A stretch of 64,000 bases of DNA from an uncultured Spirochaetota bacterium (lineage in GTDB: Bacteria; Spirochaetota; UBA4802; UBA5550): the NCBI GenBank assembly GCA_963827275.1, contig CAWHAA010000008.1:32001-96000 (forward strand), read 5' to 3'. Below the pieces are notes generated by a model that worked only from the letters and a program-made list of their open reading frames with translations, did no database searches and had not been told where the DNA came from. This document shows positions 29,605 to 54,223 of the stretch, one piece after another. Made by a program: the position numbers and the translations under genes. Position 1 is the stretch's first letter; each line of letters starts with the position of its first letter.

Positions 29605-29808
29605 ATTTTTCCGCGCCTTCCAAGCCATGATGGGACATGGCGCATATATCATACCCTCAGAAAGAGAATGTTTTGTAAAGTATTCTTTTCTGTCGCACGA
29701 ACAGTGCGCGGGTCCTTCCCTGCCACCGCGTATAAAAATTCCGGGCACTATGCCCGCGAATTTTTTCAGACAGGCGAAATGATCAGGCGGCGGATTGCAT
29801 GCTCGTCG

Positions 29809-30283
29809 TTACTCCGGGTTCCCGTAATTATTGAACAGGAGGAACCGCCTCGCGAAGAAATTCCACAGGGAAACAAGAATGCCGGCGGCGATTTTCGAAG
29901 AGTAGATAGTGGAACCCCGTCCCCTCCGTGAACAGGAACATCAGAAGCTCGGTCAGCCCGAGCCCGATGAACCCGATTATTATGAAGACCGCGTATTCCG
30001 GCATGCTTTCATACCTGGGGATGTACGCGTTGAATACTATTCTTTTGCAAAGAAAATAATTTACCGTGGTGCCGGTTATGAAGGCAATTGCCGCAGAAAC
30101 AAGATACTGGAGCCCGAGCTCGGTGAAGATGAATAGCAGCAGATAGTCAACCGCGAAAGCGGCGATCCCGGCCAGGGGATTTCTCGCGAACTGGATGACG
30201 ATGTTGTCGGTTGGCCGCCTGAATACGCCGTCCCAGTCGCTGTCCCGTATCAGTCTTCCCAGCTCTCTGAATGTATCTCTCAT
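29809..30283 (-). CDS. GtrA-family membrane protein (frameshift near 3' end)
   Basis: GtrA-like helices; C-terminus SKIAAGILVSLWNFFARRFLLF continues in another frame. Confidence 0.75.
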
Positions 30284-30572
30284 CGCATGTATCACCGCCG
30301 CAGGGATTGCAAAGCCTTGCATGCGGGACGTACCCTGTCAATAGTTTAACGTTTACATGCTTGGAGCGTGTCATTCCTCTAACTATGAACATCCGGCAGA
30401 TTGATAACCGGGGTTTACTCCAAAATAGCTGGTTGTTTCACCTGCTTATTAGAATGATAATTCTAATTTACAAACACTTTCTGAGTAATTCTTTTTTTAT
30501 TATGCTTGTATGAATGGCAATATAATTATATAATTTATTACAGACCGTCTGCAAACAAGTGATTCATGGAGA

Positions 30573-33500: not shown

Positions 33501-33683
33501 GACCCGTTCCTTGCGCATATGTCGCTTGTACTGGCCTACGGTTTGCTTTTTGGCACAGCTATTACACTTTTCATGGTTCCATTATTGTTTACTGCAAGTG
33601 TAGATATTTCCAATAGTGCAGTCAGAATAACTAAAAAATTTAACATTACCTTTCTTTCCAGGTATCTGCCTCCTCTCAGGTAA
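30573..33683 (+). CDS. RND efflux permease (AcrB/AcrD/AcrF family), AT-rich, no adjacent partner genes
   Basis: YPGSS..DVE..VT.PIE, GMLVDDAIV, GVIVNNSI, RLRPVLLTT. Confidence 0.93.
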   Translation: MEIMRNLVGFFINRPMLINIIVLAIIALGVKSATEIRKEGFPEISMNKIIIQTIYPGSSAGDVELNVTVPIEDALEEIEGIKEILSVSEEGVSRIEIQADDNASPEEFRKLYNDAESALASISDLPKDIEGKPSIQEFTSSDVPVMEISYTGEYKILKPYIDRLELKLKKLSGVSNVTTIGIPDEEVQILVDPVRAREQKIDLKMILRAIQKRNLEGSGGTLESFIGEKKIVFLSKFDRYQDVLDTNIIMNNEGFGTKLKQIANLKVIPKESNLIVRNNGDRGATISIKKTGSSDLIKTVDGINSFLEKETLPDGVVCKVLFDQSRLTRDRISLLAGNAVLGFILVVAVLLMIFNIKTAVWTAFGIPFTLCGMFIFMKIYGISLNLISLGAFIIILGMLVDDAIVIAEEINSNKEQGMEPKDAAVEAVKKMWVPVAASSLTTMVAFSPLFSLGGFPGKFIWAIPLMVIVGLLISLFESYFLLPGHMSHGKVKKTLKKPFVIKFENLYEKAMVKAVNRKYLFISLMVILLMASVVLFARFVDKDPFPQDAAEGFSIAVTLPKGSPPEETEKSVIEMEQLLKKLPENEIVGFSSRIGTQSLLSATTMGTQNNIAVIFVYLKPFSQRDRTADQIMAALKKDITRAAVQSHSLFVMNLSRLGPPMGRPFEIRIISNDNELRGNKEREIRKYLKTLPGIFDIENDDIEGKNELNLKINHDILSRTGLTVEDVLTTLRIAFDGMIVTNLSTVDKTIEFRLRLNERARADKNFIDNLPIANSMGNIINLSMFTSLVEQQSRAGIHHINGIRATTIFGNTDLKKISPVEVMNKVRSLYPSDANVAIEYSGQPVETNQIFSGLASAALAAFVGIYLLISLILNSFSKPLIIMTSIPFLVIGFAFVLITHGIPASMMGGIAMVGLMGVIVNNSIIMADTIRGLSGDHQITKNIIIKGAVSRLRPVLLTTITTVFGVLPTGYGIGGSDPFLAHMSLVLAYGLLFGTAITLFMVPLLFTASVDISNSAVRITKKFNITFLSRYLPPLR

Positions 33684-33717
33684 AGGCCCGGGGGACACAA
33701 TGAGCTTTATGTGAAGC
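33660..33717 (+). repeat. Degenerate partial copy of the 127-bp repeat
   Basis: AGGTATCTG...GCCCGGGGGACACAATG..CTTTATGTGAAGC aligns with AGGAATCTG...GCCCAGGGGACACAAAG..TTTATATGAAGC. Confidence 0.7.
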
Positions 33718-33748
33718 AAGTATGTGAGATCGTCCTGCAACTAATATA

Positions 33749-33795
33749 AATATATAGGAATCTGTTGCCTCATCAGTACAAGCCCAGGGGACACA
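33749..33795 (+). repeat. Partial (first 47 bp, exact) copy of the 127-bp repeat
   Basis: AATATATAGGAATCTGTTGCCTCATCAGTACAAGCCCAGGGGACACA. Confidence 0.95.
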
Positions 33796-33885
33796 TGGAG
33801 GGGCTTAATCTAAGAGGAAGTAATTGCTGATAAAAAGCATTCAGTCACATTGACCTGTACTGAATACGGAGCATTGTCCTATATA
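33796..33885 (-). repeat. Diverged, inverted partial copy of the repeat
   Basis: Reverse complement TATATAGGACAATG...TCAGTACAGG...GCTTTTTAT...CTTCCTCT...AAGCCCCTCCA is collinear with the canonical repeat. Confidence 0.8.
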
Positions 33886-34012
33886 AATATATAGGAATCT
33901 GTTGCCTCATCAGTACAAGCCCAGGGGACACAAAGCATTTTATATGAAGCTGCTTCCTCTCAAGTGAAGCCGCCTCCAACATAAAAAAGCGCTGGACAGG
34001 AGCTTAAAATTT
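33886..34012 (+). repeat. 127-bp direct repeat, copy 5 (most distal from transposase)
   Basis: Identical by eye to copies at 40246, 44240, 48140, 49864. Confidence 0.99.
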
Positions 34013-34792
34013 GTCCCAACAATGTATATTGGCCTTCTCAATCATCCCCGGATCGAATCACTCGATCTGTCTTTCGTGTCAGGGTGTTTCAGCGGCAGCG
34101 CTCCTCTGGCAGTGGAAATAATAAAGAAGTTCGAAGAAAAAACCGGGACCGTCATCTGCGAGGGCTTCGGGATGACCGAGTCATCACCCGTCACCCATAT
34201 CAATCCCTTTGCAAAAGGCAGGACCAAGCCCGGGAGTATCGGTATACCGATTCCCGATGTCGAATGCCGCATCGTGAGCATCGAAGACCAGAGTACCGAT
34301 GTCGAGCCCGGCGAACCCGGCGAGCTCATCATGCGTGGGCCACAGGTCATGAGGGGATACAAGGGGATGAGCGGTGAAACCGAGAATACCATTCGCGACG
34401 GATGGCTGCATACGGGCGATATAGCGCGGATGGACGATGAAGGCTATTTTTACATCGTCGACCGGTTAAAGGACATGATATTGTCCGGAGGGTACAACGT
34501 GTATCCGCGCGACATCGACGAGATACTGTATACGCACCCGAAGGTGCTCGAGGCCTGCTCGATCGGCGTACCGCATTTGAAGCGCGGTGAAGCCATCAAG
34601 GTGTTTGTCGTGCTCAAGCCTGGAGAAGAGGCCACCGTTCAGGAGATAATCGATTTCTGCAAAGACAAGCTCGCGGTGTACAAGCTGCCTGAGGAAGTCG
34701 AATTCAGGAATGACCTCCCGAAATCAACGGTCGGTAAAATCCTCAGGAAAGAGCTCAAGGCCGAAGAGATGAATAAAAGGAAGAATAAGTAG
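34013..34792 (+). pseudogene. 5'-truncated long-chain acyl-CoA synthetase (C-terminal part only)
   Basis: Begins VPTMY exactly at the repeat end; EGFGMTE, TGD, VDRLKD, GKILR present; N-terminal AMP-binding P-loop absent. Confidence 0.92.
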
Positions 34793-34800
34793 ATGAAGGA

Positions 34801-34830
34801 TTGCGCAGCTTGCCCGTGCAAGCTGCGCAA
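34801..34830. terminator. Perfect 13-bp stem hairpin between convergent genes
   Basis: TTGCGCAGCTTGC-CCGT-GCAAGCTGCGCAA. Confidence 0.6.
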
Positions 34831-34899
34831 TGACCGAATGACATTAACCGGTTGTCGACAAGGGACATTTTCCGGTGCCCCCGTTTTTTGACGATTGTA

Positions 34900-35778
34900 C
34901 TATAATTTATCTTTGACCCACTCCCATGTTTTCTCCCAGACTTCCATGCGGTTGACCTCGTTGAAGTTCTCATGGTAATTGGCGTGGTAGTAGATAACAT
35001 CGACCGGCTGGCGCTTGATCGATTTCAGCGCATTCTCGCTGTGTTCCGGGTCTGCCAGCATGTCCTGGCCGGCGATGATTCCGAGTATGGGTGATGCGTC
35101 CCATTGGGCTATATTGCCGAGCACGAACTTCTGGGCCTTTTCCGATGCGACGGCCAGACCCGCAGTGGCCGTTTTTCCACGCACGCCGCTTTTCTCATCG
35201 GCATGATGGCGCGCCGTGATTTCGGCGTCATGAGTCAGGTGATCGGTAACCGGCTGCGGAGTTACCTCGAACCTGGGGTTCATGAGGGATATGATTTTAG
35301 CCATGGCCCTCAATACGGGAGATACTTTCACCCTGTTGACAAGCCAGGGGGATGAAAGAATGGCCCCGGCTATGCCGGATCCCTTGCCGATAGTCAGGCC
35401 GTAGTAGAGGGATATGAGGGCGCCGTTTGAATGGGAAAGAAAGAAGACCGGTACCCCGCGGTGCTTCATCCTTACATCGCGTACATACTGATCAATGTCC
35501 CTGACGTAGGTGTCGTATGAGTCGATATGAAAGAAGTTTTTTTCCCCGGGATTATGCCGGGGAAAATCCCCGTGCCATCTCATGTCAGGGGCGTAAGTGG
35601 CGATCCCCTTGTTCCTGAAAAAAAGCGCCGTTTCCATCCAGTCTCCTGCATAGGCCATACCGCCGTGAACTGCAATGAAGACCGCGCGGGGTTTTTCCCT
35701 GGGGAGCCATACGTGTGACACCAGCTTTGCAGTGCTGTCAGGCTGAAAGATTTCACATTTTGTTTCTGAATACTTCAT
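34900..35778 (-). CDS. Lysophospholipase-like alpha/beta hydrolase
   Basis: VHGG, DMRWHG, SHSNG nucleophile elbow, D and YHE triad residues. Confidence 0.88.
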   Translation of the reverse strand: MKYSETKCEIFQPDSTAKLVSHVWLPREKPRAVFIAVHGGMAYAGDWMETALFFRNKGIATYAPDMRWHGDFPRHNPGEKNFFHIDSYDTYVRDIDQYVRDVRMKHRGVPVFFLSHSNGALISLYYGLTIGKGSGIAGAILSSPWLVNRVKVSPVLRAMAKIISLMNPRFEVTPQPVTDHLTHDAEITARHHADEKSGVRGKTATAGLAVASEKAQKFVLGNIAQWDASPILGIIAGQDMLADPEHSENALKSIKRQPVDVIYYHANYHENFNEVNRMEVWEKTWEWVKDKL

Positions 35779-35896
35779 CTCATACTCCTGCTGACTGTTG
35801 TATAAAAAAATGATACCGGCAGGGTTGTAACCCTGGCCGGCATAAGTGTACCCGGTTTTATTACAAGCGGGGAAGGATCCCCGCAGGTAAGCTTAT

Positions 35897-37675
35897 TTAC
35901 TTGACCGTGTTTTCGATCATGAAATCAATCATCGGCATGAATACCTCGTTTTCCCTGTCCGGGTTGTCGGTGGCGGCAGTGAGGGTGTCGAAGTGGTCGT
36001 ATCCTTCGGCCGTGACCTGTGAAACGTCAATGCCTGCGTTTTTCGCCGGTTCATAGAATGGACCGTCCCCTGCGAGCGACAGGAAAACATGCTGCTCTTC
36101 GAGCTTGGCATGATGGAAATAGTTCAGGCCGTATTTTTTACTCACTGGATAGGTTGCCATCAGCATGTCAATGACGATCCTGGTGGGGAAGTACCATTCC
36201 ATGAGATTCGACGGGCCCTTGTACATGGTAGCCGCGATCGTGTGCAGGTCGGTGACCTCGGCTTTCTGCGTGGTAAAGGCGAGCTCATCCTTGCCGAGCT
36301 CGTTGTAGTTTTTCCATGTATAAAGCACATTCTTGTCATCGGCGATATAGAGATTGTCCCCGGTAAAAAGAATACTGATGAGATCGGTCAGTGGAGGAAT
36401 TTCGGGAAGTCCGTCGGGAAGCGGGAAATTCTTTTTCACTATAGCCCCGCCGCTCAGCATCCCTATGCTGCCGTTACAGATCGATATTGGCATGAAGTTG
36501 TCGTCGAGGAATACGCCAAGCAGCGCCTCGTTGGTGAAACGGTAGTCCGCTATGGACGGGTCGGGCTGAAGAAACTGGACAAGGCTGCGGGAATGCACCA
36601 GCTTGAGCAGCGTTTCGACGCTGGCAGAGTAGGGGACTTTGCCGAGGAGAGTGGATTCCTCGTCGGGCCTGGTATCGGCCAGTATGCCGATGAGCTCGAG
36701 CAGCATGTATGTTTCGGAGTTAAACCCCATCGTTTTGATGGGCAGTATGCGCGGGAGGGTGCTGTTTTTCAGCCCGGCGACGATGATCGGGTAGGCGCCG
36801 CTCGCCATCCCCGGGACCATTGCCTGTATTGATCCGGGAAGCATTGCCATAATGGGATCGAAGAGATCGACGAAGGGAGACACGATCGTGTCGAGGCCCA
36901 CGATGCCGGCGCAGTTGTTGTATCCGGCGTCATTGGTGGTTGCGGGGTTGCCGTCAAAGTCCCATCCGCTGAAGAAAGCCGCAAGGAACCCGCCCAGTGA
37001 ATGGCCGCCCACGAATACTTTCTTCTTGCGGACTTTCTGGTCGGGGACCAGGGTCTTGATGAGAGTATAAACATCCTCCATGATGAGCTTGAGGCCCATA
37101 TCGGCAAGATAAGGGACATCCTTGTTAAGTAAATAGCCCTTGAACGTTTTACCGTTGATCGCCTTGCCTTTATAATAATAATCCAGGGCAACGTCGATAT
37201 TCCCGGTTCTCTCGGCCTCCTCGACGCCGGTGAGGTCCTCGAGGCTGTTGTATCTTCTGTCGGGGATCCATACTTCAAGCGCGATGCCGCGCTCCTTCTG
37301 GGCCATCGAAACCATTTCCCTGCCCAGGAATGACATGACGTTGTTGCTTACCAGTATGCCCGTCATGAGCACGAGCACCTGGTCTGCGTCTGAACCGTCG
37401 CCCTTTTTGCCCGCAAGACCGTAGCGGAGATACTTGATCTTCTGGCATTCAGCGGGAAGATTGGCAATACTGATCGGGGCGTTAATGCTTCTCATTTCGG
37501 AAACCACATCGACCGAAGCAACGGTCTCCAGCTGCATCGAGATAGTGTCTCCCGGGACTTCCGGCGATGTTCCATCCGTGAGGGAACCCGGGGAGGAAAG
37601 ATCATCACATCCTGAAAATAGTATGAGAGCGGTAATCGTGAAACATAAACCGAGTTTGTGGATCGTTGAAATCAT
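35897..37675 (-). CDS. Lipoprotein alpha/beta hydrolase
   Basis: LFSGC lipobox, GHSLG motif, C-terminal YDHFD. Confidence 0.75.
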   Translation of the reverse strand: MISTIHKLGLCFTITALILFSGCDDLSSPGSLTDGTSPEVPGDTISMQLETVASVDVVSEMRSINAPISIANLPAECQKIKYLRYGLAGKKGDGSDADQVLVLMTGILVSNNVMSFLGREMVSMAQKERGIALEVWIPDRRYNSLEDLTGVEEAERTGNIDVALDYYYKGKAINGKTFKGYLLNKDVPYLADMGLKLIMEDVYTLIKTLVPDQKVRKKKVFVGGHSLGGFLAAFFSGWDFDGNPATTNDAGYNNCAGIVGLDTIVSPFVDLFDPIMAMLPGSIQAMVPGMASGAYPIIVAGLKNSTLPRILPIKTMGFNSETYMLLELIGILADTRPDEESTLLGKVPYSASVETLLKLVHSRSLVQFLQPDPSIADYRFTNEALLGVFLDDNFMPISICNGSIGMLSGGAIVKKNFPLPDGLPEIPPLTDLISILFTGDNLYIADDKNVLYTWKNYNELGKDELAFTTQKAEVTDLHTIAATMYKGPSNLMEWYFPTRIVIDMLMATYPVSKKYGLNYFHHAKLEEQHVFLSLAGDGPFYEPAKNAGIDVSQVTAEGYDHFDTLTAATDNPDRENEVFMPMIDFMIENTVK

Positions 37676-37803
37676 GCTGCACCTCCATCTTCGTCTTTCT
37701 GAAACCATCTGGACGGTTTGATGGATTTAACGTAGCACAATGATTATTGGCTGTCTTATTAATTCACGACATGTCGGAAAATGTGAAGACTGAAGGGCGG
37801 TAT

Positions 37804-39378
37804 TTATTGCCCGGAATCGCTGTTTTTGCGGAAATCCGAGGGCGTCATCCCGGTTATTTTGAGAAAAACCCTGTTGAAGGTAGCGAGGTTTTCGTATCCG
37901 ACCGAAAACGCTATATCGATGATCCTGTTTTCGGGATTTTTCAGCTGGTCACGCGCGTCTGCTATCCTGCGCTCGTTGATGTAGTCCTGTATCTTTTTGC
38001 CGGTGTACGAGGTGAAGATGCGGCTCAGGTGGTCGGGGCTCATGCCGATCGAGCCGGCCAGGCCCTCGCGGGAGATGTCGGACCGGTAGTTTTCGTCGAG
38101 GAAGGCCATGATCCGCTTCAGCTTGTCTTCTGCCGAGGAGGTCACGGTGAAGCCCCTGGCCGGGGTATCCGGTTCGCTCAGCTTGCTGTAAAGCAGGGCA
38201 AGGGCGGTTTTACTGCTGATAAGGTCCCGGACGATGTATATGATGGCGAGCGTCGAGATGATCGGTATCGTATAGGTATGGGTCAGGGGAGGTGTATGGA
38301 TAAAGAACAGATAGCTTGTCACATCCCATAATATCAGCGAGCCCGGGAGAAACCCGAAAATGATGAACAGTGTAATGGACGCGTCTTTTTTGATTTTTTT
38401 GATCGTATACAGGACATGGCCCAGAACAAGGGCAGCTGCGAACATCGCTGACGTACCCAGTATCCTTCCGGGGTAATACGGGGATGTCGTATCGGGAAAG
38501 ATCCATATGACCACTGTGATAATTATGAACGCAGGAATGACGATCTTGTTGTGCCCGGAAAGGTAGCATTTATAGTACGCCTGGATGAAAAGCAGGTACA
38601 GGATTGAGAAAGAAGACGGGCACGACCAGAGAAACGTGACCCTCGCGTCGATCGAGAAAGGGAACCATGGAGAAAACAGGGACAGGATATACAGGCTCCA
38701 GCATATGAGGACGGATGCCGCGTACACGTTGACTTTTTCGGTCCGGTTGTAGTAAAACAGGGCCAGGTTGAACATGGCCTGCGCCACGAGGAAAATAACG
38801 ATGCCTATCGGGAGCTGGCCGTAGATGAAACTGTCGAGTATCGTCGTACGAATAAAGGTTTCCCCGGGCATGAGCGCGGGCGATCCTCTGACGCCGCCGT
38901 ATTCTTTTCCATAGATACCGAGATATACATGCACGGTATTCTTTCCCGCTTTAAGCGTCCCGCGCGGAATGGTGTAGTTCCTGGGCGTATGCACGGCCTG
39001 TATCTCCTCGGCGGTGTGGCTCCCGACCGGGATGCCGTTAATGAAGCTGCGGTCGGTGTAATATATCCTCCCGAGGTTGATGCCCGCAAACCGGTCCGGG
39101 TCTCCGGTGATGTCGACATCCCCCCTGAGCCATAAGTGGCTGTATTGACCCTTTCTCGTCACCGGATGACGGAACATCGCGGGCAGTGAAATCGGCTTCC
39201 ACAGAGCGTCGTCGCAGGGGATGGTTTCGGTTTCGCTGAAGATGACGGACCAATTCGTGACCGGCAGATCGTCCCGGGCTGGGGAACATCCCCCCAGGGT
39301 GATGACGAGCGCGGCCGCAAAAAACACGGGGATTCTCATCACCCGGCGTTTAATGGTATGTATTTTTAGTACTGACAT
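37804..39378 (-). CDS. Membrane-anchored AraC-family regulator (periplasmic + 7TM + HTH)
   Basis: C-terminal IIDIAFSVGYENLATFNRVF.K.TG.TPSDFR; multiple TM helices. Confidence 0.9.
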   Translation of the reverse strand: MSVLKIHTIKRRVMRIPVFFAAALVITLGGCSPARDDLPVTNWSVIFSETETIPCDDALWKPISLPAMFRHPVTRKGQYSHLWLRGDVDITGDPDRFAGINLGRIYYTDRSFINGIPVGSHTAEEIQAVHTPRNYTIPRGTLKAGKNTVHVYLGIYGKEYGGVRGSPALMPGETFIRTTILDSFIYGQLPIGIVIFLVAQAMFNLALFYYNRTEKVNVYAASVLICWSLYILSLFSPWFPFSIDARVTFLWSCPSSFSILYLLFIQAYYKCYLSGHNKIVIPAFIIITVVIWIFPDTTSPYYPGRILGTSAMFAAALVLGHVLYTIKKIKKDASITLFIIFGFLPGSLILWDVTSYLFFIHTPPLTHTYTIPIISTLAIIYIVRDLISSKTALALLYSKLSEPDTPARGFTVTSSAEDKLKRIMAFLDENYRSDISREGLAGSIGMSPDHLSRIFTSYTGKKIQDYINERRIADARDQLKNPENRIIDIAFSVGYENLATFNRVFLKITGMTPSDFRKNSDSGQ

Positions 39379-39419
39379 TTTTTTACGGTATAATCCGCCA
39401 GATCGTATTTTAAAAGATT

Positions 39420-39578
39420 GCCACTGCGGCGCAGAGACACAGAGGAAAATATGACAGAGCTAAGATTAAGATATAACTTCTTTATCCCACGACGGAGAAA
39501 AACTAGATGTTTAAATCTTTTATTAGACTTCTTCATTATAGTATATTGTTGTTCTCTGTGCCTCGGTGACTCTGTGGC
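39420..39578. repeat. Imperfect ~26-bp inverted repeats enclosing ~110 bp of AT-rich DNA
   Basis: GCCACTGCGGCGCAGAGACACAGAGG ... TCTCTGTGCCTCGGTGACTCTGTGGC. Confidence 0.55.
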
Positions 39579-39696
39579 CTTCTTAACATAGATGCTGCTG
39601 CCCGACATGTCAAGCGGAATGAGCCGGGCTGGCTGTCCGGAAAAAAATTTGTTGATTTAATAGGAGGGGAGTATTAGCTTTGGGACGAATCGTACA

Positions 39697-39770
39697 GGGC
39701 GATTAGCTCAGCTGGTTAGAGCGCCTGCCTCACATGCAGGAGGTCGTTGGTTCGAGTCCAATATCGCCCA
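39697..39770 (+). tRNA. tRNA-Val (anticodon CAC), CCA not encoded
   Basis: GGGCGAT/ATCGCCC acceptor stem, AGCTCAGCTGGTTAGAGC D arm, CCTGC-CTCACAT-GCAGG anticodon arm, GTTCGAG T loop. Confidence 0.96.
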
Positions 39771-39895
39771 AAAGAACTTCTGGAATATTCAGGAGTTAGA
39801 AAGCTACCGGACAACCGGCGCTTCTTAAAAATCCAAAAGTGTAGCACAAGTGTAGCATGAATTTGCACGGTGCTCACGATTGCAGGAGGCTTAAG

Positions 39896-40105
39896 ATGTC
39901 GTCGCACGGTAAACCCTACTCACTCTACAAACGAAATCGCACCTATTACGTCCGTTACAAACTCCCTGACAACCAATGGAGCACCGCAAAGAGCACCGGG
40001 GAAAGTTCCAGGAGCAAGGCCGAGCGCTGGGCTTTCGATTATCTCTCTGCAGGGAAGATCGTTACTAAAAAGAACGTTACCCTTGCCGAGTATGCACAGG
40101 GCTAC
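39896..40105 (+). pseudogene. N-terminal stub of a tyrosine recombinase/integrase
   Basis: AGGAGG RBS; PYSLYKR...YYVRY......STG..SR..AE.WA arm-binding-like N-terminus just after a tRNA; no catalytic domain follows. Confidence 0.65.
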
Positions 40106-40245
40106 AGTGTTGATTCAAGACCGCGGCGGCAATTCTTTCGCGGTCATGGTTGGGGAGGATGTGGGACTACCCTGCCCCGGAATACAGTATTACAATACCT
40201 ATTACGCGAAATAACTCAAATTGAATTAAAAACTTTTATATCATT

Positions 40246-40372
40246 AATATATAGGAATCTGTTGCCTCATCAGTACAAGCCCAGGGGACACAAAGCATTT
40301 TATATGAAGCTGCTTCCTCTCAAGTGAAGCCGCCTCCAACATAAAAAAGCGCTGGACAGGAGCTTAAAATTT
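40246..40372 (+). repeat. 127-bp direct repeat, copy 4
   Basis: Identical sequence AATATATAGGAATC...AGGAGCTTAAAATTT. Confidence 0.99.
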
Positions 40373-40433
40373 TCAGAACTGGATCGAGGTCTACGAGATG
40401 TTCGCGAAGCTGTACAAGTTTATCCCGTGGTAA
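40373..40433 (+). pseudogene. 3' end of an unknown gene cut at the repeat
   Basis: QNWIEVYEMFAKLYKFIPW-stop with host-like codons starting at the junction. Confidence 0.5.
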
Positions 40434-40451
40434 ACGGCTCAATCGCCCCCC

Positions 40452-40564
40452 GTCCAGCGCTTTTTTATGTTGAAAATATCAGGCTGATCTCCCATGATAG
40501 CTGCCGATATGGCCGATTCATTCGCATTGGCCTGTGCTGAATACAGAGCATTTTCTTAGATATT
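40452..40564 (-). repeat. Diverged inverted copy of the repeat
   Basis: Exact CAACATAAAAAAGCGCTGGAC on the - strand plus AATATCTAAGAAAATG...TCAGCACAGGCCAATG collinear with the repeat start. Confidence 0.75.
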
Positions 40565-40616
40565 GATATTTATTCATCTTTCGTGCCCCCTCCGGGGGCC
40601 AGGGGGGCGTTGCCGC

Positions 40617-41873: not shown

Positions 41874-41907
41874 TTCAGTGGTGGGTTTTTCCGGGGCTGG
41901 CGCGCGG

Positions 41908-44145: not shown

Positions 44146-44239
44146 ATTTCTTCTTACCTCCGTCGCAATACTATTACCGTTACATCGTCATTGCAAGTAT
44201 AATTTTCAAGCGTTTCGAAAATTGCGGCCCTTATCTCTT

Positions 44240-44366
44240 AATATATAGGAATCTGTTGCCTCATCAGTACAAGCCCAGGGGACACAAAGCATTTTATATG
44301 AAGCTGCTTCCTCTCAAGTGAAGCCGCCTCCAACATAAAAAAGCGCTGGACAGGAGCTTAAAATTT
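44240..44366 (+). repeat. 127-bp direct repeat, copy 3
   Basis: Identical sequence. Confidence 0.99.
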
Positions 44367-44367
44367 T

Positions 44368-44493
44368 AATACTCGGGGAAATACACCCTCATAGGTTGAG
44401 GCCCATGCGATTGAATGCATTTTATCAGCAATTACTTCCTCTTAGATTAAGCCCCCTCAGGCACAAAAAGCGCTGGACAGAGGCTTAATATTT
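44368..44493 (+). repeat. Full-length diverged copy of the repeat in tandem with copy 3
   Basis: Collinear with one 1-nt gap, about two-thirds identical by manual alignment; keeps GCATTTTAT, CTTCCTCT, AAAAAGCGCTGGACAG. Confidence 0.88.
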
Positions 44494-44549
44494 TTCTTTT
44501 ATTTTTCTGTTTTATCTGTTTCATATAAAAATTTTTCATAACCTCTTTT

Positions 44550-46184
44550 TCAGCGTATTATACACCTATAAACCATTAATCTCTCACAATCATCATCAAA
44601 CGCAACGACCGGCATATTGTCAGTCCCGACTGCTATAGAGCAATCATAGGCATAACCATAATCTATTATACCGATGGTTTGCCATGTGATTCCCGATACC
44701 CATTTCGCAACATGAACATCCGTATCAGAAATAGTATATTGCACGGTGGCAACCACCGGCCTGCCATCCGTACCAATAGCAATTGCTTTTCCGGATTCAT
44801 CATATATACTGGCAAGTCCGTAATCAATCAATGTTGAATCATCTCCACCCTTCATCACGTGGGCGCGATAATCGTTATCGCCATCGGTGAACATGAATAT
44901 CGGCAGGTTGTCCTGGCCCATCACAATAACCGGATTATATCCATTGGGAGTCAAATATCCTGGGTCTAACCAGGCAGTGCCGGAATCCCACATGAGCAAG
45001 CCCAATTTATAATCATTACTGTTATCCTGATATATCAGGGAAGGTTTATTGTTATTAGCCACAGCTAACGAGAAATGATTCATGGTGTAATCATCGAATA
45101 TACCCATGTCACTCCATGAAACACCGGATTCCCATTTAAAGGCTCTTATAAAATAACCCCAGTCCCAGTATTTAAGAAGGACGACGGGCCTGTCGTCAGG
45201 CCCGATGGCGATTTTCTTTTCCTGTAATTCGCCCCCCACAAGGCCAAGATCATCCCAGGAAGTGCCGGAATTCCATTTCATGACATGAGCCTTACCCCCA
45301 TTGGAACTATCCCTGTAAACGATGACTGGCTTACTGTCTGATCCAACCGCAAGTTCAGCCAAATAGTCATCGAAATAACCAAGATCATCCCAGGAATTTT
45401 CAGCATTCAATTTATACACGTGCATGCGCAATAAACCGTTTATCTCATCCTCGAAAGCTACAATCGGCCTATTATCCGGACCGATGAGTATTTTTTCATT
45501 CACGACATATTCCACATCCGGAAAGCCAAGATCCTCGAAAATGTTATAGCGGGCAATAGATATATCAGAATCGAATTTATCCTCTTTATACGCGTATGCC
45601 CTTACTTCCGTCATGGCATCAATTGTTGCAATATTTCCCGTTATCGCAGTGCTGCTCGTCTTCGGATCAGAGCCATCTGTTGTATATTTTATTGTGGCAC
45701 CTTCCGTTGAAGAAATTGTAACTTTCTGCGGTCCTACATATGAACCTGAAAGGGGATTGAATGCCGGAGTCGAACAGGCAGACCAGTTTATTGTATAGGC
45801 GGCTGTTGCAATTTCGCTTTCATGATGAAGCCGTGTTATCGCAATGGCCTTTATGGTGACCGATGTCCCATTTCCTGAAACCCGAATCGGTTCTTTGTAG
45901 ACCTTCGACCGAATATCCGGATCGCTCCCGTCAGTTGTGTAGTACACCGTAGCCCAATCGAGCATGCAATAAATTTCTACTTCCAGATCATGGTCATAGG
46001 TACCTGGCAAGGGGCTGAATTCCGGCGGGAATACATAGCCCGATTCGGAATAAGAAAAAAAGGGTCCACTATTGACTTTATTGGAATCGCGTTTGCAGCT
46101 GAAAGGGAAAATAGTTATGCATATGATTAATAACGCATAAAATGTATTTATATGTCGTATGTTTAATTTATTCGGCATGCCCAC
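44550..46184 (-). CDS. Lipoprotein with two chitobiase/FN3-associated (YTTDGSDP) domains and a repeat-rich C-terminus
   Basis: PFSC lipobox; P.FSP..G.Y...YYTTDGSDP twice; W..G.SW.D.G repeats. Confidence 0.8.
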   Translation of the reverse strand: MGMPNKLNIRHINTFYALLIICITIFPFSCKRDSNKVNSGPFFSYSESGYVFPPEFSPLPGTYDHDLEVEIYCMLDWATVYYTTDGSDPDIRSKVYKEPIRVSGNGTSVTIKAIAITRLHHESEIATAAYTINWSACSTPAFNPLSGSYVGPQKVTISSTEGATIKYTTDGSDPKTSSTAITGNIATIDAMTEVRAYAYKEDKFDSDISIARYNIFEDLGFPDVEYVVNEKILIGPDNRPIVAFEDEINGLLRMHVYKLNAENSWDDLGYFDDYLAELAVGSDSKPVIVYRDSSNGGKAHVMKWNSGTSWDDLGLVGGELQEKKIAIGPDDRPVVLLKYWDWGYFIRAFKWESGVSWSDMGIFDDYTMNHFSLAVANNNKPSLIYQDNSNDYKLGLLMWDSGTAWLDPGYLTPNGYNPVIVMGQDNLPIFMFTDGDNDYRAHVMKGGDDSTLIDYGLASIYDESGKAIAIGTDGRPVVATVQYTISDTDVHVAKWVSGITWQTIGIIDYGYAYDCSIAVGTDNMPVVAFDDDCERLMVYRCIIR

Positions 46185-46315
46185 CCCCCCAAAGGAATTG
46201 AATTATTAGACTTTTTATATGCTAATCCCCACAAGAGGTTTCTGTATATCTTGGATATCAATAATTAACTATTATTCAACAAGCATAATGATGGAAGAAT
46301 TTATGATTGTTCTTT

Positions 46316-46933
46316 TCATATAATCTCCCCGCTACTTGCTAAAGACGAGTATTCGTCTTTAACTCTGAAAAGAACGCCGAGGTTGACAAAGGGCTCGATT
46401 CTGGCCGTATATTTTCGGCCATCATTACCTTTCCATTCAAGCAATCCCACCCTGGCTCCACAATCAAGACTAAGAGTAATCAATTTCGCCATATTATAAT
46501 TGAACCCCCAAGCAAGCCCTAAATTGGTTCCAAAATGCTTATCATAAAAATCATATGAAAAATGTACATGTGGGCCGAGCCAGAACCTGAAATTTTGAAG
46601 TCGTACGATCCCGAAACCGAAGGAATTTTGCATATTTAGAAAATTATGATTCTCTTTAGCAACATAGAATTTTTTTTCATGAAGATAATTTTTCCTCTGC
46701 AAATTTGTGTAATCCAAATGCATACGATAATTGAACAGATTGTTTTTTGCAACAGTGGTGTCAATGATGAATCCCGCGCCAAGAAACATTCTATCACTGT
46801 ATTCATCTTCATGATATCCTCTATGGAACGTGGCCCCACCAGTGAGATGTACGCCGAGACCCACAGCATATGATTTTACTGTAATGAGCATAACAACGAA
46901 ACTCAAGAATAATACTAATGCATTTTTTTTCAT
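46316..46933 (-). CDS. Secreted/outer-membrane beta-barrel-like hypothetical protein
   Basis: Signal peptide (KSYA), alternating aromatic/Gly strands. Confidence 0.6.
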   Translation of the reverse strand: MKKNALVLFLSFVVMLITVKSYAVGLGVHLTGGATFHRGYHEDEYSDRMFLGAGFIIDTTVAKNNLFNYRMHLDYTNLQRKNYLHEKKFYVAKENHNFLNMQNSFGFGIVRLQNFRFWLGPHVHFSYDFYDKHFGTNLGLAWGFNYNMAKLITLSLDCGARVGLLEWKGNDGRKYTARIEPFVNLGVLFRVKDEYSSLASSGEII

Positions 46934-46955
46934 AAAGCATACTCCAATGCAGCAT

Positions 46956-47555
46956 TTACATATTGTTTTCAGCTGAGAGATCAATGAACCAAGCACTACC
47001 ACATCCTTCATTTAACATCTTCATGAGACTAAGCTTAACCACAAAGCCTTCTCTTTTCCAAATATAATTTTTTTCTCTTGGATCACCTGCTTGAAGATCA
47101 TAATGTATTATCGAGGATGATGCATCATACTCACCAATTTCATTTTTCAATTGCAAATAAATTTTATAAAAAAGTTTTTTATTGTATTTATAATCAATTT
47201 GATGGCATATTGAAGCATAACCTTTTTTCGAACAATAGATACATTCCTTTCTGAAATCAGTGGGTTGGATAATAATTTGTTTAATCTTATTTTTTTTTAT
47301 GTCAGATATTATTCTTATTCTTACACTTCCTATATCATGCCATCTACTATAGGAATAATTGATTATACCTTTTTCTTCAATTTTATTAATTAAATCATCA
47401 GTTGAAACTCTACTTTCATAAAAGTTAAATGGTTTAAATATCATAGGTAGATTCATCGAATTCTTACTAGTCACTTCAGTTGAATTTGAACAAAAAAGTG
47501 ATATAATAATCGATAAAAATGAAACAGTGAATAATTTATTAATTTTAATTCCCAT
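46956..47555 (-). CDS. AT-rich hypothetical lipoprotein, candidate immunity protein
   Basis: AGGAGA RBS, ISLFC lipobox, immediately after the M23 domain. Confidence 0.55.
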   Translation of the reverse strand: MGIKINKLFTVSFLSIIISLFCSNSTEVTSKNSMNLPMIFKPFNFYESRVSTDDLINKIEEKGIINYSYSRWHDIGSVRIRIISDIKKNKIKQIIIQPTDFRKECIYCSKKGYASICHQIDYKYNKKLFYKIYLQLKNEIGEYDASSSIIHYDLQAGDPREKNYIWKREGFVVKLSLMKMLNEGCGSAWFIDLSAENNM

Positions 47556-47567
47556 GATAATCTCCTA

Positions 47568-48137
47568 TTATTCTGGATCTGGATTCTCCCAAATCCTATT
47601 GTCAATCGGTTCGGTGTTAATATCCTGAAAAAAAGGAGCTGGATCAAGCCAGTTTGATGTTGGTTGGGCATTTGTACCTGGAGGATTATCAATATCACTT
47701 ATACCAAAATGAAGGTGATCTTCGCCTAGTTTTGTCAATCCTTCAGCTGAAGTATTACCTGTCCTGGCTATCTTTTGACCCTGTTTAACTGGATCTCCAA
47801 CTTTAACATCTCTCTCAATTAAATGAGAATTCCATGCATAAAACGTCTTTCCATCCATTTGCATTTTATATCTCATACCACCCCAATTTCCTGTAAAAAA
47901 ATCATATAATCTATTGCCAATTGTGTAATTATATGTAAATTTATAAACGACTAATTGGCCATAACCCTTAGTATTATACTCTGATCTAACAACAACACCA
48001 TTCCCAACAGCATAAACATTTTGACCTATATTGGCCCTTAAATCTACAGCACCATGACCATATAGCCCTGAATATCTATTATGTGTTCCAAACATATTCG
48101 AAATAGGATCGAATCGTCCACACTGATGGCTTCTTAT
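47568..48137 (-). pseudogene. 5'-truncated M23-family peptidase domain
   Basis: HGAVD (HxxxD), GYG, SHL, HLHF; frame stays open upstream of ATG 48095 up to the repeat junction. Confidence 0.82.
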
Positions 48138-48139
48138 TT

Positions 48140-48266
48140 AATATATAGGAATCTGTTGCCTCATCAGTACAAGCCCAGGGGACACAAAGCATTTTATATG
48201 AAGCTGCTTCCTCTCAAGTGAAGCCGCCTCCAACATAAAAAAGCGCTGGACAGGAGCTTAAAATTT
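48140..48266 (+). repeat. 127-bp direct repeat, copy 2
   Basis: Identical sequence. Confidence 0.99.
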
Positions 48267-48395
48267 AAGCCCGTGAAGACGAGGAACAAACAGCTCAAGC
48301 TTTTCAATGAATTTACCAGGCGATGGGTTTTCAATTCTCATGCGTATGATGCTGAACGCTACATTCAGGACCATGGCGATTTTCAATTATCCTAG
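48267..48395 (+). pseudogene. 3' end of an unknown gene cut at the repeat
   Basis: KPVKTRNKQLKLFNEFTRRWVFNSHAYDAERYIQDHGDFQLS-stop, open from the first base after the repeat. Confidence 0.45.
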
Positions 48396-49024
48396 GAGGT
48401 TTTCTTGTTAATTATTAGAGTTTTCATTCACCCTAAAGGGGTCGTTGGTTGGGCTACCTGGTCTCGAGGCAGCGCCGGATAGCGCACGGGGCCTGCTACC
48501 CTGCTCCTTCTCCGTGTTCCGAGCCTTTGGCTTGGTGAGTAGTGTTATGCTTTGTGTTCCGGTTCTCTGCCGGCCAAGGGATTAGTACTGGTTGTCGTGT
48601 GCAGGATTAGCGTCAGTTGGGCAGGGCCGACATGGTTTCCAGTAATAAAAAAACCGGGTCATACGAAAAACCAATCAATGAAAGAAATAAAATATGCTGA
48701 TATCAATATTGGGATATTTTCAAGTAAAAAGAAATAATATCTGAGGCCTTCTGCTGATTTAGGAAGTCTCAATACATTAAAATGATAAAATATTAATATA
48801 TATGGCTAAACCCAATAGAGGACTCAAATGGAATATTTAAAAACAGTGAATTTCCTTTAAATCCACTATTTATATCATAAAATCCATTTTGAAAGGTATT
48901 TAGAAATGGATTTGTGCCAGTCAACAGGCATAGTAAATGAACCACCTACACCTAAACCGAAACTTAAATTTATAGCCCAATGCCTATTCATTGAAACACC
49001 AAATCCACCACCCGCCCAAAGAAT

Positions 49025-49678
49025 TCAATGAATATGCATTGGCTCCCTTGCTCTACTTCTAATAAGTAAATAAAAAGCATCTTCTCTTTTATTTAAATTA
49101 TCATTGTCTTCAAAAAATAATGAATAATATTTATCCAAAGAAATCAATTCAATAGAAGAAATATCTTGAGGCCGTGATCTCCAAACAGTAGCAAAATGTA
49201 TATTACTAGATTGACCGCTACTATTTTTATAATATTCCTTATTACCCTCTTTAAATTTATCAATTAAAATTTTTAACACTGAGTTATAATAATTATTATA
49301 AAATTCAATTTCTATCTCAATACTATTATCCATTGGAGCGAAATGGTAAACTACTCTTGATATTTTATTTTTATCAAATCCAGAACCAATAAAATATTTT
49401 GTTTTGATACATATTGGAGCATTTAATAAATCATTTGTTTTTACAGAATCGCCATAGGGATTGAAACCACTAAATGGAATGCCTTTCCCCCTTAAAATCC
49501 GAACAACTTTTCTGCTTGTTAATTTGCTAATATCAATACCAAATATTATATCAGGAAAAGTAATATACATTTTCTGATTATCATCAGATAATCCACCTGA
49601 TTTCTTACAACTAAATATACTCAACAAAAAACATAAAATGAAAATCTTTGGCATACTATTTTTTATATTAATAACCAT
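49025..49678 (-). CDS. Very AT-rich hypothetical lipoprotein, candidate immunity protein
   Basis: IFSC lipobox; overlaps the stop of the upstream truncated ORF. Confidence 0.55.
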   Translation of the reverse strand: MVINIKNSMPKIFILCFLLSIFSCKKSGGLSDDNQKMYITFPDIIFGIDISKLTSRKVVRILRGKGIPFSGFNPYGDSVKTNDLLNAPICIKTKYFIGSGFDKNKISRVVYHFAPMDNSIEIEIEFYNNYYNSVLKILIDKFKEGNKEYYKNSSGQSSNIHFATVWRSRPQDISSIELISLDKYYSLFFEDNDNLNKREDAFYLLIRSRAREPMHIH

Positions 49679-49863
49679 AATCCCAACCCCAACTATACCT
49701 GAATATTATTGCATTTCCAAAGCCCCCGGTAGGACTTACATCTAAATAATCCCATAGAAGGTTAAAACTACTTCCAAAACCTGTAATACAACCCCATGAA
49801 CCACTATTATATAGTGACCCATCAGGATAGTAAGGACTACTTGTATCGTATGAGCCTATTCGA
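49668..49863 (-). pseudogene. 5'-truncated ORF, possible toxin C-terminus
   Basis: Open from the repeat junction; GSWGCI motif; translationally coupled to the lipoprotein. Confidence 0.45.
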
Positions 49864-49990
49864 AATATATAGGAATCTGTTGCCTCATCAGTACAAGCCC
49901 AGGGGACACAAAGCATTTTATATGAAGCTGCTTCCTCTCAAGTGAAGCCGCCTCCAACATAAAAAAGCGCTGGACAGGAGCTTAAAATTT
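49864..49990 (+). repeat. 127-bp direct repeat, copy 1 (transposase-proximal; oriIS-like end)
   Basis: Identical sequence; - strand ends ACAGATTCCTATATATT about 250 bp downstream of the transposase stop. Confidence 0.99.
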
Positions 49991-50116
49991 GGCGCGCGCT
50001 GCGAAAATTGAGAAAAATTTTTGAAAATGTGTAAAGAAAACCTACCCGCGAATAGTACAACAGCGGTTTGTCAAAATAGCAAGAAATTTTTGGGAATTAT
50101 TGAGAGAAATCAAGCA

Positions 50117-51349
50117 TCAAGGCCCCTTTTTCATCCTGAAATACCCGCCGACAAGAAGATGTGTCTTCCAGAGTTTCCTCCATTCCCTGTCGGCAAAATA
50201 CGCAAAAACAACTGATTCTGCCATGTATGCGCCACAGTCGGGGCAGATCTCAGGATTTGTGTCGAAAGAATGCTCTATGGCGTGCGCCCAGGTCTTTCGG
50301 GTTATCTGATCTAGCTTGTGTTTAATGCCATGCGCATATATCCCATAGTATCGTATCGCTTTGCGGTGCTTATCAGGCAGATAAAAGAGCATTCTTGCCA
50401 TGAATTCGTAAACGTCCAGGGTCATTTCAGAGTAGGTCTTTTCTTTCGTGTTACGGTCAACCCAGCTTTTATATCTGAACGTTATTTTCGCTTTATTATG
50501 GTTTATGCCTGTTATCATGCTGTTGTGGAAGTATCCGGCCGCGAGGTACTCGGCGGTGCGAAATAATACTTCGTTATTTGTGCCGATTACAGGCTGTAGA
50601 TGCACATGAAAGCCGTTTTTATATTTTTCCCTGATTATACGAACTTCTTCTTCGGATAGTATCCCGTTTTTCCCCAATAGGCGAAGTACGGCATTCATCC
50701 ATGAAAAGCGGATTCTTCGGTAGTTCAGGAGCGGTGAGCGGAGTATCTCTCCTGTTAATGTATTCACCAGCTCCCGCGTGCCGATCAGGTGCACATGCGG
50801 ATTGAAGTTCAGGGCATTGCCACACTTGTGCAGGGTGGCGATGCTGCCTGATTGCCATTCCCTGCCGGGATTACCCGTGCTTTTCAGGAGCTCCTTCCAG
50901 TACACGCCGGCCGCCGCGGTGATTAGGTCCTCGCACGGGAAGCGTCTTTCGAAGAGCGCCCGGGTCACCGGCCCGGGCAGGGTGAAGGTGACGTGGAAAT
51001 GAGTCAGGGTCGTGTGCATGACCTCCGACAGGTTCATGGACCAGCCGTACAGCTTTTTCCGGTGGCAGGAGAGGCAGAGACGGGATTTGCAGGTGAATGG
51101 TACCATGAGGACCGTGCCGCACTCAGGGCACACGTGCTTCCGGAACCCGTTTCGGTAGTCTCCGCACGAAAGGAGCTTCAACACCTCGGATATCTTCTCT
51201 TCGGTAAGATCGCCATAGAGGGGCGCAAAGTTTTTCTGATATTGCTCCCTGAATTCATGCCAGTATCGCTGCCATACTCCCTTGTATAGGGACTGCCTGT
51301 CCATCCCGGGCCGGTAGGGCGGCGTGATGTCGCTTGTGCGAAGGTACAT
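50117..51349 (-). CDS. IS91/ISCR-family HUH rolling-circle transposase
   Basis: Zn-binding CPECG...TCKSRLCLSC, H.TFTLP, NPHVHLI (HUH), RTAEY catalytic helix, IRYYGIYA, C-terminal CPDCG. Confidence 0.93.
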   Translation of the reverse strand: MYLRTSDITPPYRPGMDRQSLYKGVWQRYWHEFREQYQKNFAPLYGDLTEEKISEVLKLLSCGDYRNGFRKHVCPECGTVLMVPFTCKSRLCLSCHRKKLYGWSMNLSEVMHTTLTHFHVTFTLPGPVTRALFERRFPCEDLITAAAGVYWKELLKSTGNPGREWQSGSIATLHKCGNALNFNPHVHLIGTRELVNTLTGEILRSPLLNYRRIRFSWMNAVLRLLGKNGILSEEEVRIIREKYKNGFHVHLQPVIGTNNEVLFRTAEYLAAGYFHNSMITGINHNKAKITFRYKSWVDRNTKEKTYSEMTLDVYEFMARMLFYLPDKHRKAIRYYGIYAHGIKHKLDQITRKTWAHAIEHSFDTNPEICPDCGAYMAESVVFAYFADREWRKLWKTHLLVGGYFRMKKGP

Positions 51350-51591
51350 ACAGGGGGAACGGGCGGGTATATCGAAAGAGTAAAACTATTTTCACACGCG
51401 CCCCCTCCGGGGGGCGGGGGGCATGAAAATCTGGCAGGGCAAGCAAAGGCTACCTTCGTTTATGGGGTAGGCGGCCTCACGCCGCCGGCAGATTTGCCGC
51501 AAACAGAAATATTTCCTTGAAAATTAATCCCCTTTTTATAGATAGTGCATCATGCCCGCGGAAAACCGGGCGGCAAAGAAAGAGGTGCGCC

Positions 51592-54223
<2,632 letters not shown>

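What the first reader, a model, noticed from the sequence alone, without database searches (positions are those of the whole stretch)
33660..51486. Candidate DNA-capture system: HUH transposase followed by an array of identical 127-bp repeats spaced by kilobase DNA fragments
Seen: five identical 127-bp direct repeats (33886, 40246, 44240, 48140, 49864) separate segments of 6233, 3867, 3773 and 1597 bp. The segments are unrelated to each other and differ sharply in GC content. The array begins 126 bp past the stop of an intact IS91/ISCR-type transposase and ends in partial/degenerate repeats. All five copies share the same left and right boundary, with no target-site duplication. Known: ISCR elements mobilise neighbouring DNA from oriIS by rolling-circle read-through, normally carrying the transposase along. 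Inference: here only a fixed 127-bp ori-containing unit is duplicated with each new fragment. That would be sequential, CRISPR/integron-like acquisition of kb-sized DNA by a HUH enzyme rather than Cas1 or IntI. I do not recognise this architecture as a described system.
Basis: partly seen in the sequence, partly recalled or inferred. Interest (0 to 1): 0.95.

Follow-up and report, generated by a model that had tools for sequence, protein, structure and literature searches.

The report
Rolling-circle transposon building DNA cassette arrays
In a group of spirochaete bacteria, a rolling-circle jumping gene appears to copy out its last 127 bases, pick up kilobase pieces of unrelated DNA with them and stack the pieces one after another behind itself, giving an integron-like gene collection built with known transposon chemistry.

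Summary
Real. Five identical 127-bp repeats follow an intact IS91-family transposase (minus strand) and separate four unrelated segments, with no target duplication. The repeat's far end is an IS91-type oriIS; its near end is a fixed boundary behind a conserved GC-rich leader. The layout recurs behind related transposases (39-91% identity) across Spirochaetota: 21 of 31 and 15 of 26 loci, against 0 of 16 and 2 of 21 upstream controls. Segment ends often cut genes. 75 of 80 segments start with an IS91-like target base. Segments of one array map to separate loci in relatives. Spacer-less repeat tandems occur, and leader-proximal copies are the most similar. Best reading: the repeat moves as a mini-element, captures flanking DNA by one-ended rolling-circle transposition, and the unit re-inserts at an existing repeat's ori junction. 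Each chemical step has IS91/IS801 precedent; the fixed internal end and polar array were not found in ten literature searches. It is not CRISPR and not an integron by definition. About 60 decayed repeat relatives in this genome suggest a selfish element rather than a domesticated locus. The scan noted similar oriIS-end arrays on other DNA (unchecked notes). No activity was shown. New variant of a known kind.

The parts
50117..51349 (-). IS91-family HUH transposase, 410 aa, intact. HUH motif H185-x-H187; single conserved Tyr268 (the first Tyr of the IS91 YxxxY motif is Arg here)
51350..51430 (-). Probable 5' (ter) end of the whole element about 43 nt upstream of the ATG, AT-rich like the repeat's left end, preceded by a GC-rich palindrome that is also dispersed in the genome. 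Boundary inferred, not mapped
49991..50116 (-). Leader: 126 bp between the transposase stop and the first repeat, ending in a GC-rich motif conserved across the clade
49864..49990 (-). R1, leader-proximal 127-bp repeat. Fixed AT-rich left end; oriIS-type right end (TTCCT + 7 nt)
48267..49863 (.). Segment S1, 1597 bp, GC 0.34. One 217-aa ORF without a family; its far end cuts a sequence that continues with GAAC in five native contexts
48140..48266 (-). R2, identical repeat
44367..48139 (.). Segment S2, 3773 bp, GC 0.38. M23-domain ORF, two unknown ORFs, CHB_HEX_C/Fn3 protein, ending in a foreign repeat variant
44368..44494 (-). R', divergent full repeat (about 72% to R) whose ori end abuts R3 without a spacer
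44240..44366 (-). R3, identical repeat
40373..44239 (.). Segment S3, 3867 bp, GC 0.54. SpoIIE-domain protein, ketoacyl synthase (80% to two paralogues in this genome), and the last 60 bp of the gene that precedes it in relatives
40445..40563 (+). Inverted, left-truncated repeat relative lying alone between two genes that are neighbours in relatives
40246..40372 (-). R4, identical repeat
34013..40245 (.). Segment S4, 6233 bp, GC 0.52. tRNA-Val(CAC), AraC regulator, 603-aa unknown, alpha/beta hydrolase, 5'-truncated AMP-binding enzyme
33886..34012 (-). R5, identical repeat
33656..33885 (.). Distal remnants: inverted variant (33798-33885, +), an identical 47-bp ori half (33749-33795, -) and a degenerate ori half (33656-33726, -)
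29720..33683 (.). GtrA-family and AcrB-family genes beyond the last repeat. They belong to the same ~21.8-kb stretch that five relatives lack at this site; possibly older cargo (inferred)

Best explanation
An IS91-family rolling-circle element whose last ~127 bp (R) acts as a separate mini-element and builds cassette arrays behind the parent. (1) The transposase nicks the bottom strand at oriIS and often terminates at the leader|R boundary, releasing R alone. (2) R inserts at a weak IS91-like target (bottom strand W-T-N^) in other DNA, with no duplication. (3) Away from the leader, R's left end no longer terminates, so the next round reads through into 0.4-8 kb of flank and stops at another target-like site, giving a [segment+R] unit. 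(4) That unit joins preferentially at the ori junction of an existing R, mostly the leader-proximal one, by HUH ori-to-ori strand exchange or by homologous recombination in R. The array therefore grows next to the transposase. SHOWN from sequence: architecture, boundaries, motifs, conservation, unrelated origin of segments, tandems, polarity. INFERRED: all four steps, their order, and whether R passes through a free stage or capture is concerted.
For: R ends like an IS91-family right end fetched from plasmids (TTCCT + 6 nt + GAAC there; TTCCT + 7 nt + N-A-W here). The base at +2 after ori is A in 75 of 80 unique junctions against a 29% background, and native homologues align from the first segment base, so the motif comes from the donor. 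The native continuation of S1's other end is GAAC. A leader|R junction plus ori motif was called in 64 of 82 rows, R median 127.5 nt (at least 5 rows mis-called, 2 duplicated). Repeats lie downstream of the transposase in 21 of 31 and 15 of 26 loci, upstream in 0 of 16 and 2 of 21. Six spacer-less R|R junctions occur at five loci, including R-R/segment/R-R in L214, which fits copying from the leader-proximal unit. The nearest copy is at least 5 points more like R1 than the farthest in 8 of 18 arrays, the reverse in 0. Segments of the L109 array match four different contigs of G009, while the array's two flanks lie together on a fifth. Predicted intermediates are seen: one [~780 bp+R] unit at an intergenic site empty in G009, and a lone R relative between syntenic genes. 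Precedent: IS801 ori-end minis and one-ended capture ending at target tetramers (PMC3189936, PMC6354349); IS91 bottom-strand ssDNA circles insert (PMC13181058); relaxase integration at oriT (PMC5714925).
Against: No activity, circle or strain series was observed. 10 of 31 and 11 of 26 loci show no second copy (some have tandem copies inside the query window or short contigs). No lone, full-length R with both ends intact and contiguous flanks was demonstrated; the S3 example lacks the left end. S1 itself starts T-C-G and breaks the +2 A rule. Identical tandems could come from rolling twice round an R circle rather than from ori targeting. Polarity scores are inflated by partial distal copies (about 5 of the 8 cases rest on full-length copies), three arrays show none (L035, L048, L185), and kin are not independent. 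Mosaic repeats (L024, L033, L035) show that recombination inside R also shapes arrays. The transposase lacks the first Tyr of YxxxY, and both Tyr are needed in IS91 (PMC5714925), so its termination chemistry is unknown.
Confidence: 0.62

Rival explanations
1. Concerted in-cis capture. The transposase bound at R1 cuts foreign DNA at two target-like sites and stitches it in at the array head while R1 is copied by replication, as a CRISPR repeat is. R never travels as a free element.
For: The five copies are identical and no identical copy lies elsewhere in the genome. Each array tends to have its own R (between-locus median identity 53%). Polarity and the R-R/segment/R-R case also fit.
Against: Foreign repeat variants lie inside arrays (R' in S2; blocks with a different ori half in L035). 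Single units and lone repeats occur away from any leader. 13 leader hits against 62 repeat hits in the genome.
Confidence: 0.18
2. By-product without targeting. Ori-end stubs and one-ended units of an ordinary IS91-like element pile up in neutral AT-rich islands; ori-adjacent deletions and RecA recombination between stubs make flanks unrelated and homogenise the copies.
For: IS801 ori fragments are known to mediate deletions and recombination (PMC3189936, PMC6354349). Inter-repeat segments are AT-rich (median GC 0.44 against 0.57). Most clusters are decayed and many transposases broken. Gene orientation is unbiased (longest frame co-directional in 14 of 27, read). Earlier scan notes read similar arrays this way.
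Against: The left end is fixed at one clade-wide boundary, not ragged. Non-identical repeats abut exactly (R'|R3; L208). 27 of 31 adjacent pairs are co-oriented. The array starts at the transposase's own R in most loci. Segments map to separate loci in relatives.
Confidence: 0.17
3. Misassembly through a dispersed 127-bp repeat.
For: No raw reads spanning the junctions were available. Contigs of an independent run extend only 27-29 bases into the repeat at two junctions, below the tool's 31-base rule.
Against: The same architecture appears with different repeats in dozens of independent assemblies, including near-complete genomes. Junction motifs are non-random. No exact copy lies elsewhere in the genome to mis-join through.
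Confidence: 0.03

Closest known systems
IS801 (IS91 family) miniature right-end derivatives and one-ended transposition (PMC3189936, PMC6354349; passages read)
   Same: HUH transposase; ori end at the 3' side of the gene; no TSD; 229/360/679-nt ori-end fragments transpose; flanking DNA is captured and ends at target-like tetramers.
   Different: There the minis have several ends and land in a trap gene. Here one ~127-bp end is conserved across a clade, and units accumulate head-to-tail behind the parent's own ori as polar arrays with unrelated cargo.
IS91 / IS1294 (PMC13181058, PMC5714925; passages read)
   Same: Same transposase family (NF033538 passed); oriIS motif TTCCT; target with a conserved T on the bottom strand; ssDNA circles as the inserting form.
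   Different: Only 27% identity; one Tyr instead of YxxxY; no Orf121-like upstream gene noticed; AT-rich degenerate target instead of CTTG/GTTC; internal second end and arrays.
ISCR elements (ISCR1, ISCR2, ISCR8; PMC13393415, PMC9330008; passages read)
   Same: IS91-related elements with variable genes next to oriIS, regarded as gene-capture systems.
   Different: Fails the ISCR clade Ia model (32.5 bits, cut-off 925). The repeated unit is a 127-bp end, not the whole element with integron 3'-CS. No sigma70-type outward promoter was found in leader or R.
Integrons (IntI/attI/attC) and CALINs (definition recalled; PMC8618304 seen in a search listing only)
   Same: Enzyme gene heading a polar array of [DNA + recombination site] units; orphan clusters without the enzyme.
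   Different: HUH enzyme, not a tyrosine recombinase; no attC core; cargo is multi-gene, often cut mid-gene, and unoriented; the system seems to make its own cassettes.
CRISPR arrays / Cas1-Cas2 adaptation (recalled)
   Same: Leader, identical repeats, leader-proximal growth.
   Different: Repeats ~127 bp and segments 0.4-8 kb; no cas gene among the scanned neighbours; no Rfam match; cargo mostly ordinary spirochaete genes.
Helitrons (PMC4778049; abstract start in a search listing only)
   Same: Rolling-circle elements that capture gene fragments by terminator read-through.
   Different: Eukaryotic RepHel enzyme; captured DNA stays inside the element rather than in repeat-delimited arrays.

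Membership tests
IS91 family | HUH transposase of the Y2_Tnp/Zn_Tnp_IS91 type | tested here: met
   Pfam PF04986 and PF14319; NF033538 154.3 > 125; H185/H187 invariant
IS91 family | Two catalytic tyrosines YxxxY | tested here: not met
   Only Y268 aligns, with the second Tyr of YLGRY; the first position is Arg
IS91 family | oriIS downstream of the transposase gene | tested here: met
   TTCCT-containing end shared with plasmid IS91-family records L101 and L102; TTCCT in 44 of 58 first repeats, close variants in the rest
IS91 family | No terminal inverted repeats, no target duplication, short target motif next to ori | tested here: met
   TSD 0-1 nt at 5 of 5 copies; A at +2 in 75 of 80 junctions
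IS91 family | terIS with a subterminal palindrome upstream of the gene | tested here: inconclusive
   AT-rich shared boundary ~45 nt upstream of ATG; the adjacent hairpin (z -2.1) is also a dispersed genome repeat
IS91 family | Rolling-circle transposition through ssDNA circles | not testable with these tools
   needs experiment
ISCR | ISCR-clade transposase | tested here: not met
   NF052416 32.5 bits against a cut-off of 925; only clade Ia scored at all
ISCR | Outward promoter in oriIS | tested here: inconclusive
   No sigma70 consensus pointing into the array; spirochaete promoters may differ
Integron | IntI tyrosine recombinase heading the array | tested here: not met
   The head gene is an HUH transposase
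Integron | attC sites (RYYYAAC...GTTRRRY hairpin) | tested here: not met
   No core motif on either strand; R folds no better than shuffles, z +0.5
Integron | Single-gene, co-oriented cassettes | tested here: not met
   Multi-gene and truncated cargo; longest frame co-directional in 14 of 27 segments
CRISPR-Cas | Short repeats and spacers with cas genes | tested here: not met
   127-bp repeats, kb segments, no cas family among 35 window ORFs scanned, no Rfam hit except a tRNA; the whole genome was not searched for cas

The most novel reading that the evidence does not exclude
A dedicated HUH-driven 'integron': the clade's transposase, leader and 127-bp site together make gene cassettes de novo from any DNA and file them in order of acquisition at a specific site, the ori junction of the first repeat. 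Cassettes circulate between arrays and species of Spirochaetota. It would be a third chemistry for sequential DNA archiving besides Cas1-Cas2 and IntI, and one that shows how cassettes are born.
Probability: 0.4. Interest if true: 0.9.

Novelty: new variant of a known kind. Interest (0 to 1): 0.72.

Why it matters
If ori-junction targeting holds, one small enzyme and a 127-bp site both create kilobase cassettes from arbitrary DNA and stack them in time order. That would explain the co-oriented oriIS-end arrays that this scan keeps meeting in decayed form. It gives a testable, intact model for ISCR-like gene capture, whose mechanism PMC13393415 says is not experimentally proven. It offers a parallel to the open question of how integron cassettes originate, and suggests a single-protein tool for kilobase recording or site-directed insertion. 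In this genome the family accounts for 26 repeat clusters and a ~21.8-kb island.

Tried and rejected
Folding of R: no structure above shuffles (z +0.5); the second array's repeat does fold (z -2.6), so a conserved hairpin is not established. Promoter/terminator scan: nothing above chance. Rfam: only tRNA-Val. AlphaFold model pLDDT 63, with no PDB match at E<=0.001; HUH proteins appeared only among weak rows, so it is not used. Viral contigs: no relative. Phage and plasmid records: only distant 22-28% homologues. Sequencing runs: no RNA holder listed. All four laid runs were contigs; none spans the array. In run X2 both flanks have depth ~45-50 while most segment bins are under 4, but uncovered parts prove nothing, and the one joint across the array has a 24-base side. 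No sequence motif at segment right ends inside the array (max 0.28 bits, n=47), as expected if the motif stays in the donor. An early idea that the target motif is the last three bases of R was dropped when native homologues aligned from the next base. Phage-spacer or defence reading rejected: 74 of 90 extracted cargo frames were scanned and gave miscellaneous metabolic, surface and signalling families, with only isolated mobile-element genes; PADLOC was not run. Literature: ten full-text searches found no description of such arrays; subscription papers, ISfinder and supplements were not seen. Not tested: whether the 28-33% relatives outside this clade have arrays.
Full report
OBSERVATION. The five 127-bp copies are present at the stated positions and are identical. 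The four segments are 1597, 3773, 3867 and 6233 bp, GC 0.34, 0.38, 0.54 and 0.52, mutually unrelated, and no copy has a target duplication above 1 nt. The 1036-aa ORF next to copy 33886 is an AcrB pump. The transposase is ORF 50117-51349 on the minus strand, so the locus reads transposase - 126-bp leader - R1 - S1 - R2 - S2 - R3 - S3 - R4 - S4 - R5 - remnants. Related loci are named Spirochaetota MAGs. The stretch from about 29,720 to 51,500 is missing at the same site in 5 of the 5 relatives given, where the flanking matches lie 134-556 bp apart.

THE ENZYME. It passes the IS91-family model (154 bits, cut-off 125) and fails ISCR clade Ia. H185, H187 and Y268 are invariant in 15 aligned proteins (fragments included). 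Against a plasmid IS91-family protein (27% identity), Y268 matches the second Tyr of YxxxY and the first is Arg; IS91 needs both (PMC5714925, passages). It belongs to a distinct clade: full-length representatives at 45-53% identity, then a drop to about 30%. Matches at E<=0.001 were found in 41 of 61 related genomes including its own, and the clade profile hit 25 of 301 genomes of the phylum. These include 8 of 45 in family f15, probably Leptospiraceae, because one protein is 88% identical to a Turneriella sp. protein (inference). No relative was found in viral contigs. Upstream flanks differ between loci beyond about 45 nt, so the whole element is mobile. Many copies are fragments.

THE REPEAT. 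Plasmid IS91-family records end in TTCCT, six bases, then GAAC; R ends in TTCCT plus seven bases. The second base after that end is A in 75 of 80 unique junctions, against a 29% background. Where native homologues exist they align from the first segment base, mostly mid-gene, so this base belongs to the donor and matches the G-A-A-C / C-A-A-G target pattern (PMC13181058, passages). At the other end, first copies follow a GC-rich leader motif, while internal copies follow sequence with no motif (n=47, max 0.28 bits). The lost native continuation of S1 is GAAC (GAAA in a sixth homologue), and for S3 it is AAG, AAA, AGA or AGG in about 90-98% identical homologues. Contigs from runs X3 and X6 match 46431-48139 with 19 differences and stop aligning exactly at the S2|R2 boundary. 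R shows no attC core, no fold above shuffles and no Rfam match.

CONSERVATION. In a first set, 21 of 31 distinct transposase 3' ends with at least 4 kb downstream (12 shorter loci set aside; four loci are from this genome) had further direct copies of the sequence behind the gene; 0 of 16 upstream controls did. In a second set of metagenome and phylum loci it was 15 of 26 against 2 of 21; three of the 26 rows are fragments or non-clade hits, and two negatives have a tandem copy inside the query window. A leader|R junction plus ori motif was called in 64 of 82 rows, median length 127.5 nt (at least five rows mis-called, two duplicated). First repeats of different loci are only 53% identical at the median, while copies within young arrays are 97-100% identical. 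This genome has a second array with its own identical repeat and 62 repeat-like hits in 26 clusters. 52 of the 62 lie within 8 kb of another (random mean 13, maximum 26), and 27 of 31 adjacent pairs are co-oriented. Kin are not independent, so these counts are descriptive.

ORIGIN OF SEGMENTS. In the leader-headed array L109, the segments match G009 contigs C69, C115, C40 and C35, while the two flanks lie 0.7 kb apart on C98. In the window, S1|S2 and S3|S4 are not native neighbours. Inter-repeat segments are AT-rich (median GC 0.44 against 0.57; 14 of 27 below 0.45 against 5.6% of genome windows) and unoriented (longest frame co-directional in 14 of 27, my reading). Cargo families are miscellaneous (74 of 90 extracted frames scanned).

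ORDER AND TARGETING. Six spacer-less R|R junctions occur at five loci, among them the non-identical R'|R3 in the window and the pattern R-R / 7.8 kb / R-R in L214. The latter fits termination that needs the leader and copying from the leader-proximal unit. The nearest copy resembles R1 more than the farthest by at least 5 points in 8 of 18 arrays, never the reverse; about five of these rest on full-length copies, and several arrays are flat. One [~780 bp + R] unit sits alone at an intergenic site that is empty in G009, and a left-truncated repeat relative sits alone between two syntenic genes inside S3. Mosaic repeats show recombination within R.

MECHANISM. Most likely (0.62), R is released by ori nicking and termination at the leader boundary. 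It inserts at a W-T-N^ target, later reads through into its flank because the leader is absent, and returns as a [segment+R] unit to an existing ori junction. The steps are inferred; the junction anatomy is shown. Rivals: concerted in-cis capture (0.18), untargeted pile-up with deletions and recombination (0.17), misassembly (0.03). No raw reads were available; contigs of run X1 reach 29 and 27 bases into R at two junctions without mismatch, short of the 31-base rule.

KNOWN SYSTEMS. Ori-end minis of IS801 and one-ended capture ending at target tetramers are published (PMC3189936, PMC6354349; passages). Bottom-strand IS91 circles insert (PMC13181058). Relaxases integrate at their own oriT (PMC5714925). 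ISCR transposition is not experimentally proven (PMC13393415). Integron and CRISPR definitions are recalled, and both memberships fail. Ten searches of the held library found no account of fixed-ended, transposase-headed arrays; subscription journals and supplements were not seen. The scan's own notes list 15 findings in at least 14 genomes under these words, and the 8 shown describe co-oriented IS91/ISCR end arrays, mostly decayed or ragged. They are unchecked AI notes; they suggest the phenomenon is broad and lowered my novelty class. None matched this protein by sequence.

VERDICT. A real and conserved architecture, made of known chemistry in an arrangement I could not find described: a new variant of a known kind. 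Interest 0.72. The dedicated 'HUH integron' reading has probability 0.4 and is directly testable with one gene and 250 bp of DNA.

Noticed in passing
window 51641-53805: alaS is split into three overlapping ORFs; contigs of other runs differ by single-base indels at 51743, 51745 and 52011. Probably long-read assembly errors, so frameshifts in the second transposase copy may be artefacts too.
   Followed up: partly
G000:C8:153980-161807 (L113): Second array with three identical 125-bp repeats faces a leader-headed remnant in the opposite orientation. Cargo includes a Prim-Pol fragment and a Mutator-family transposase.
   Followed up: partly
window 46431: Contigs from three runs all stop matching S2 at this point inside ORF 46316-47011, with no repeat there: a possible hidden junction.
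   Followed up: no
L033, L087, G000 C1/C2/C4/C10 leaders: A short palindromic repeat has inserted exactly at the leader|R boundary in one sublineage; in L033 the copied unit's left end shifts by a few bases to a new N-A-W site.
   Followed up: partly
L032 / L020 and L029: Pieces of the transposase gene itself are cargo or are cut by R, which may explain the many fragments in these genomes.
   Followed up: partly
window 40582-40606 and 51397-51421: GC-rich REP-like palindrome, dispersed in the genome and often paired between the ketoacyl synthase gene and its upstream neighbour in relatives.
   Followed up: no
window 39697-39770: tRNA-Val(CAC) carried as cargo inside S4.
   Followed up: no
L103 (Trichlorobacter lovleyi plasmid): The search listed 12 matching places of a distant IS91-like transposase in this plasmid; two copies read have the same TTCCT-type end followed by different DNA.
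   Followed up: no
L087 (G012:C69): An 80% identical copy of the window's CHB_HEX_C gene is the first cargo behind leader+R in another species.
   Followed up: partly
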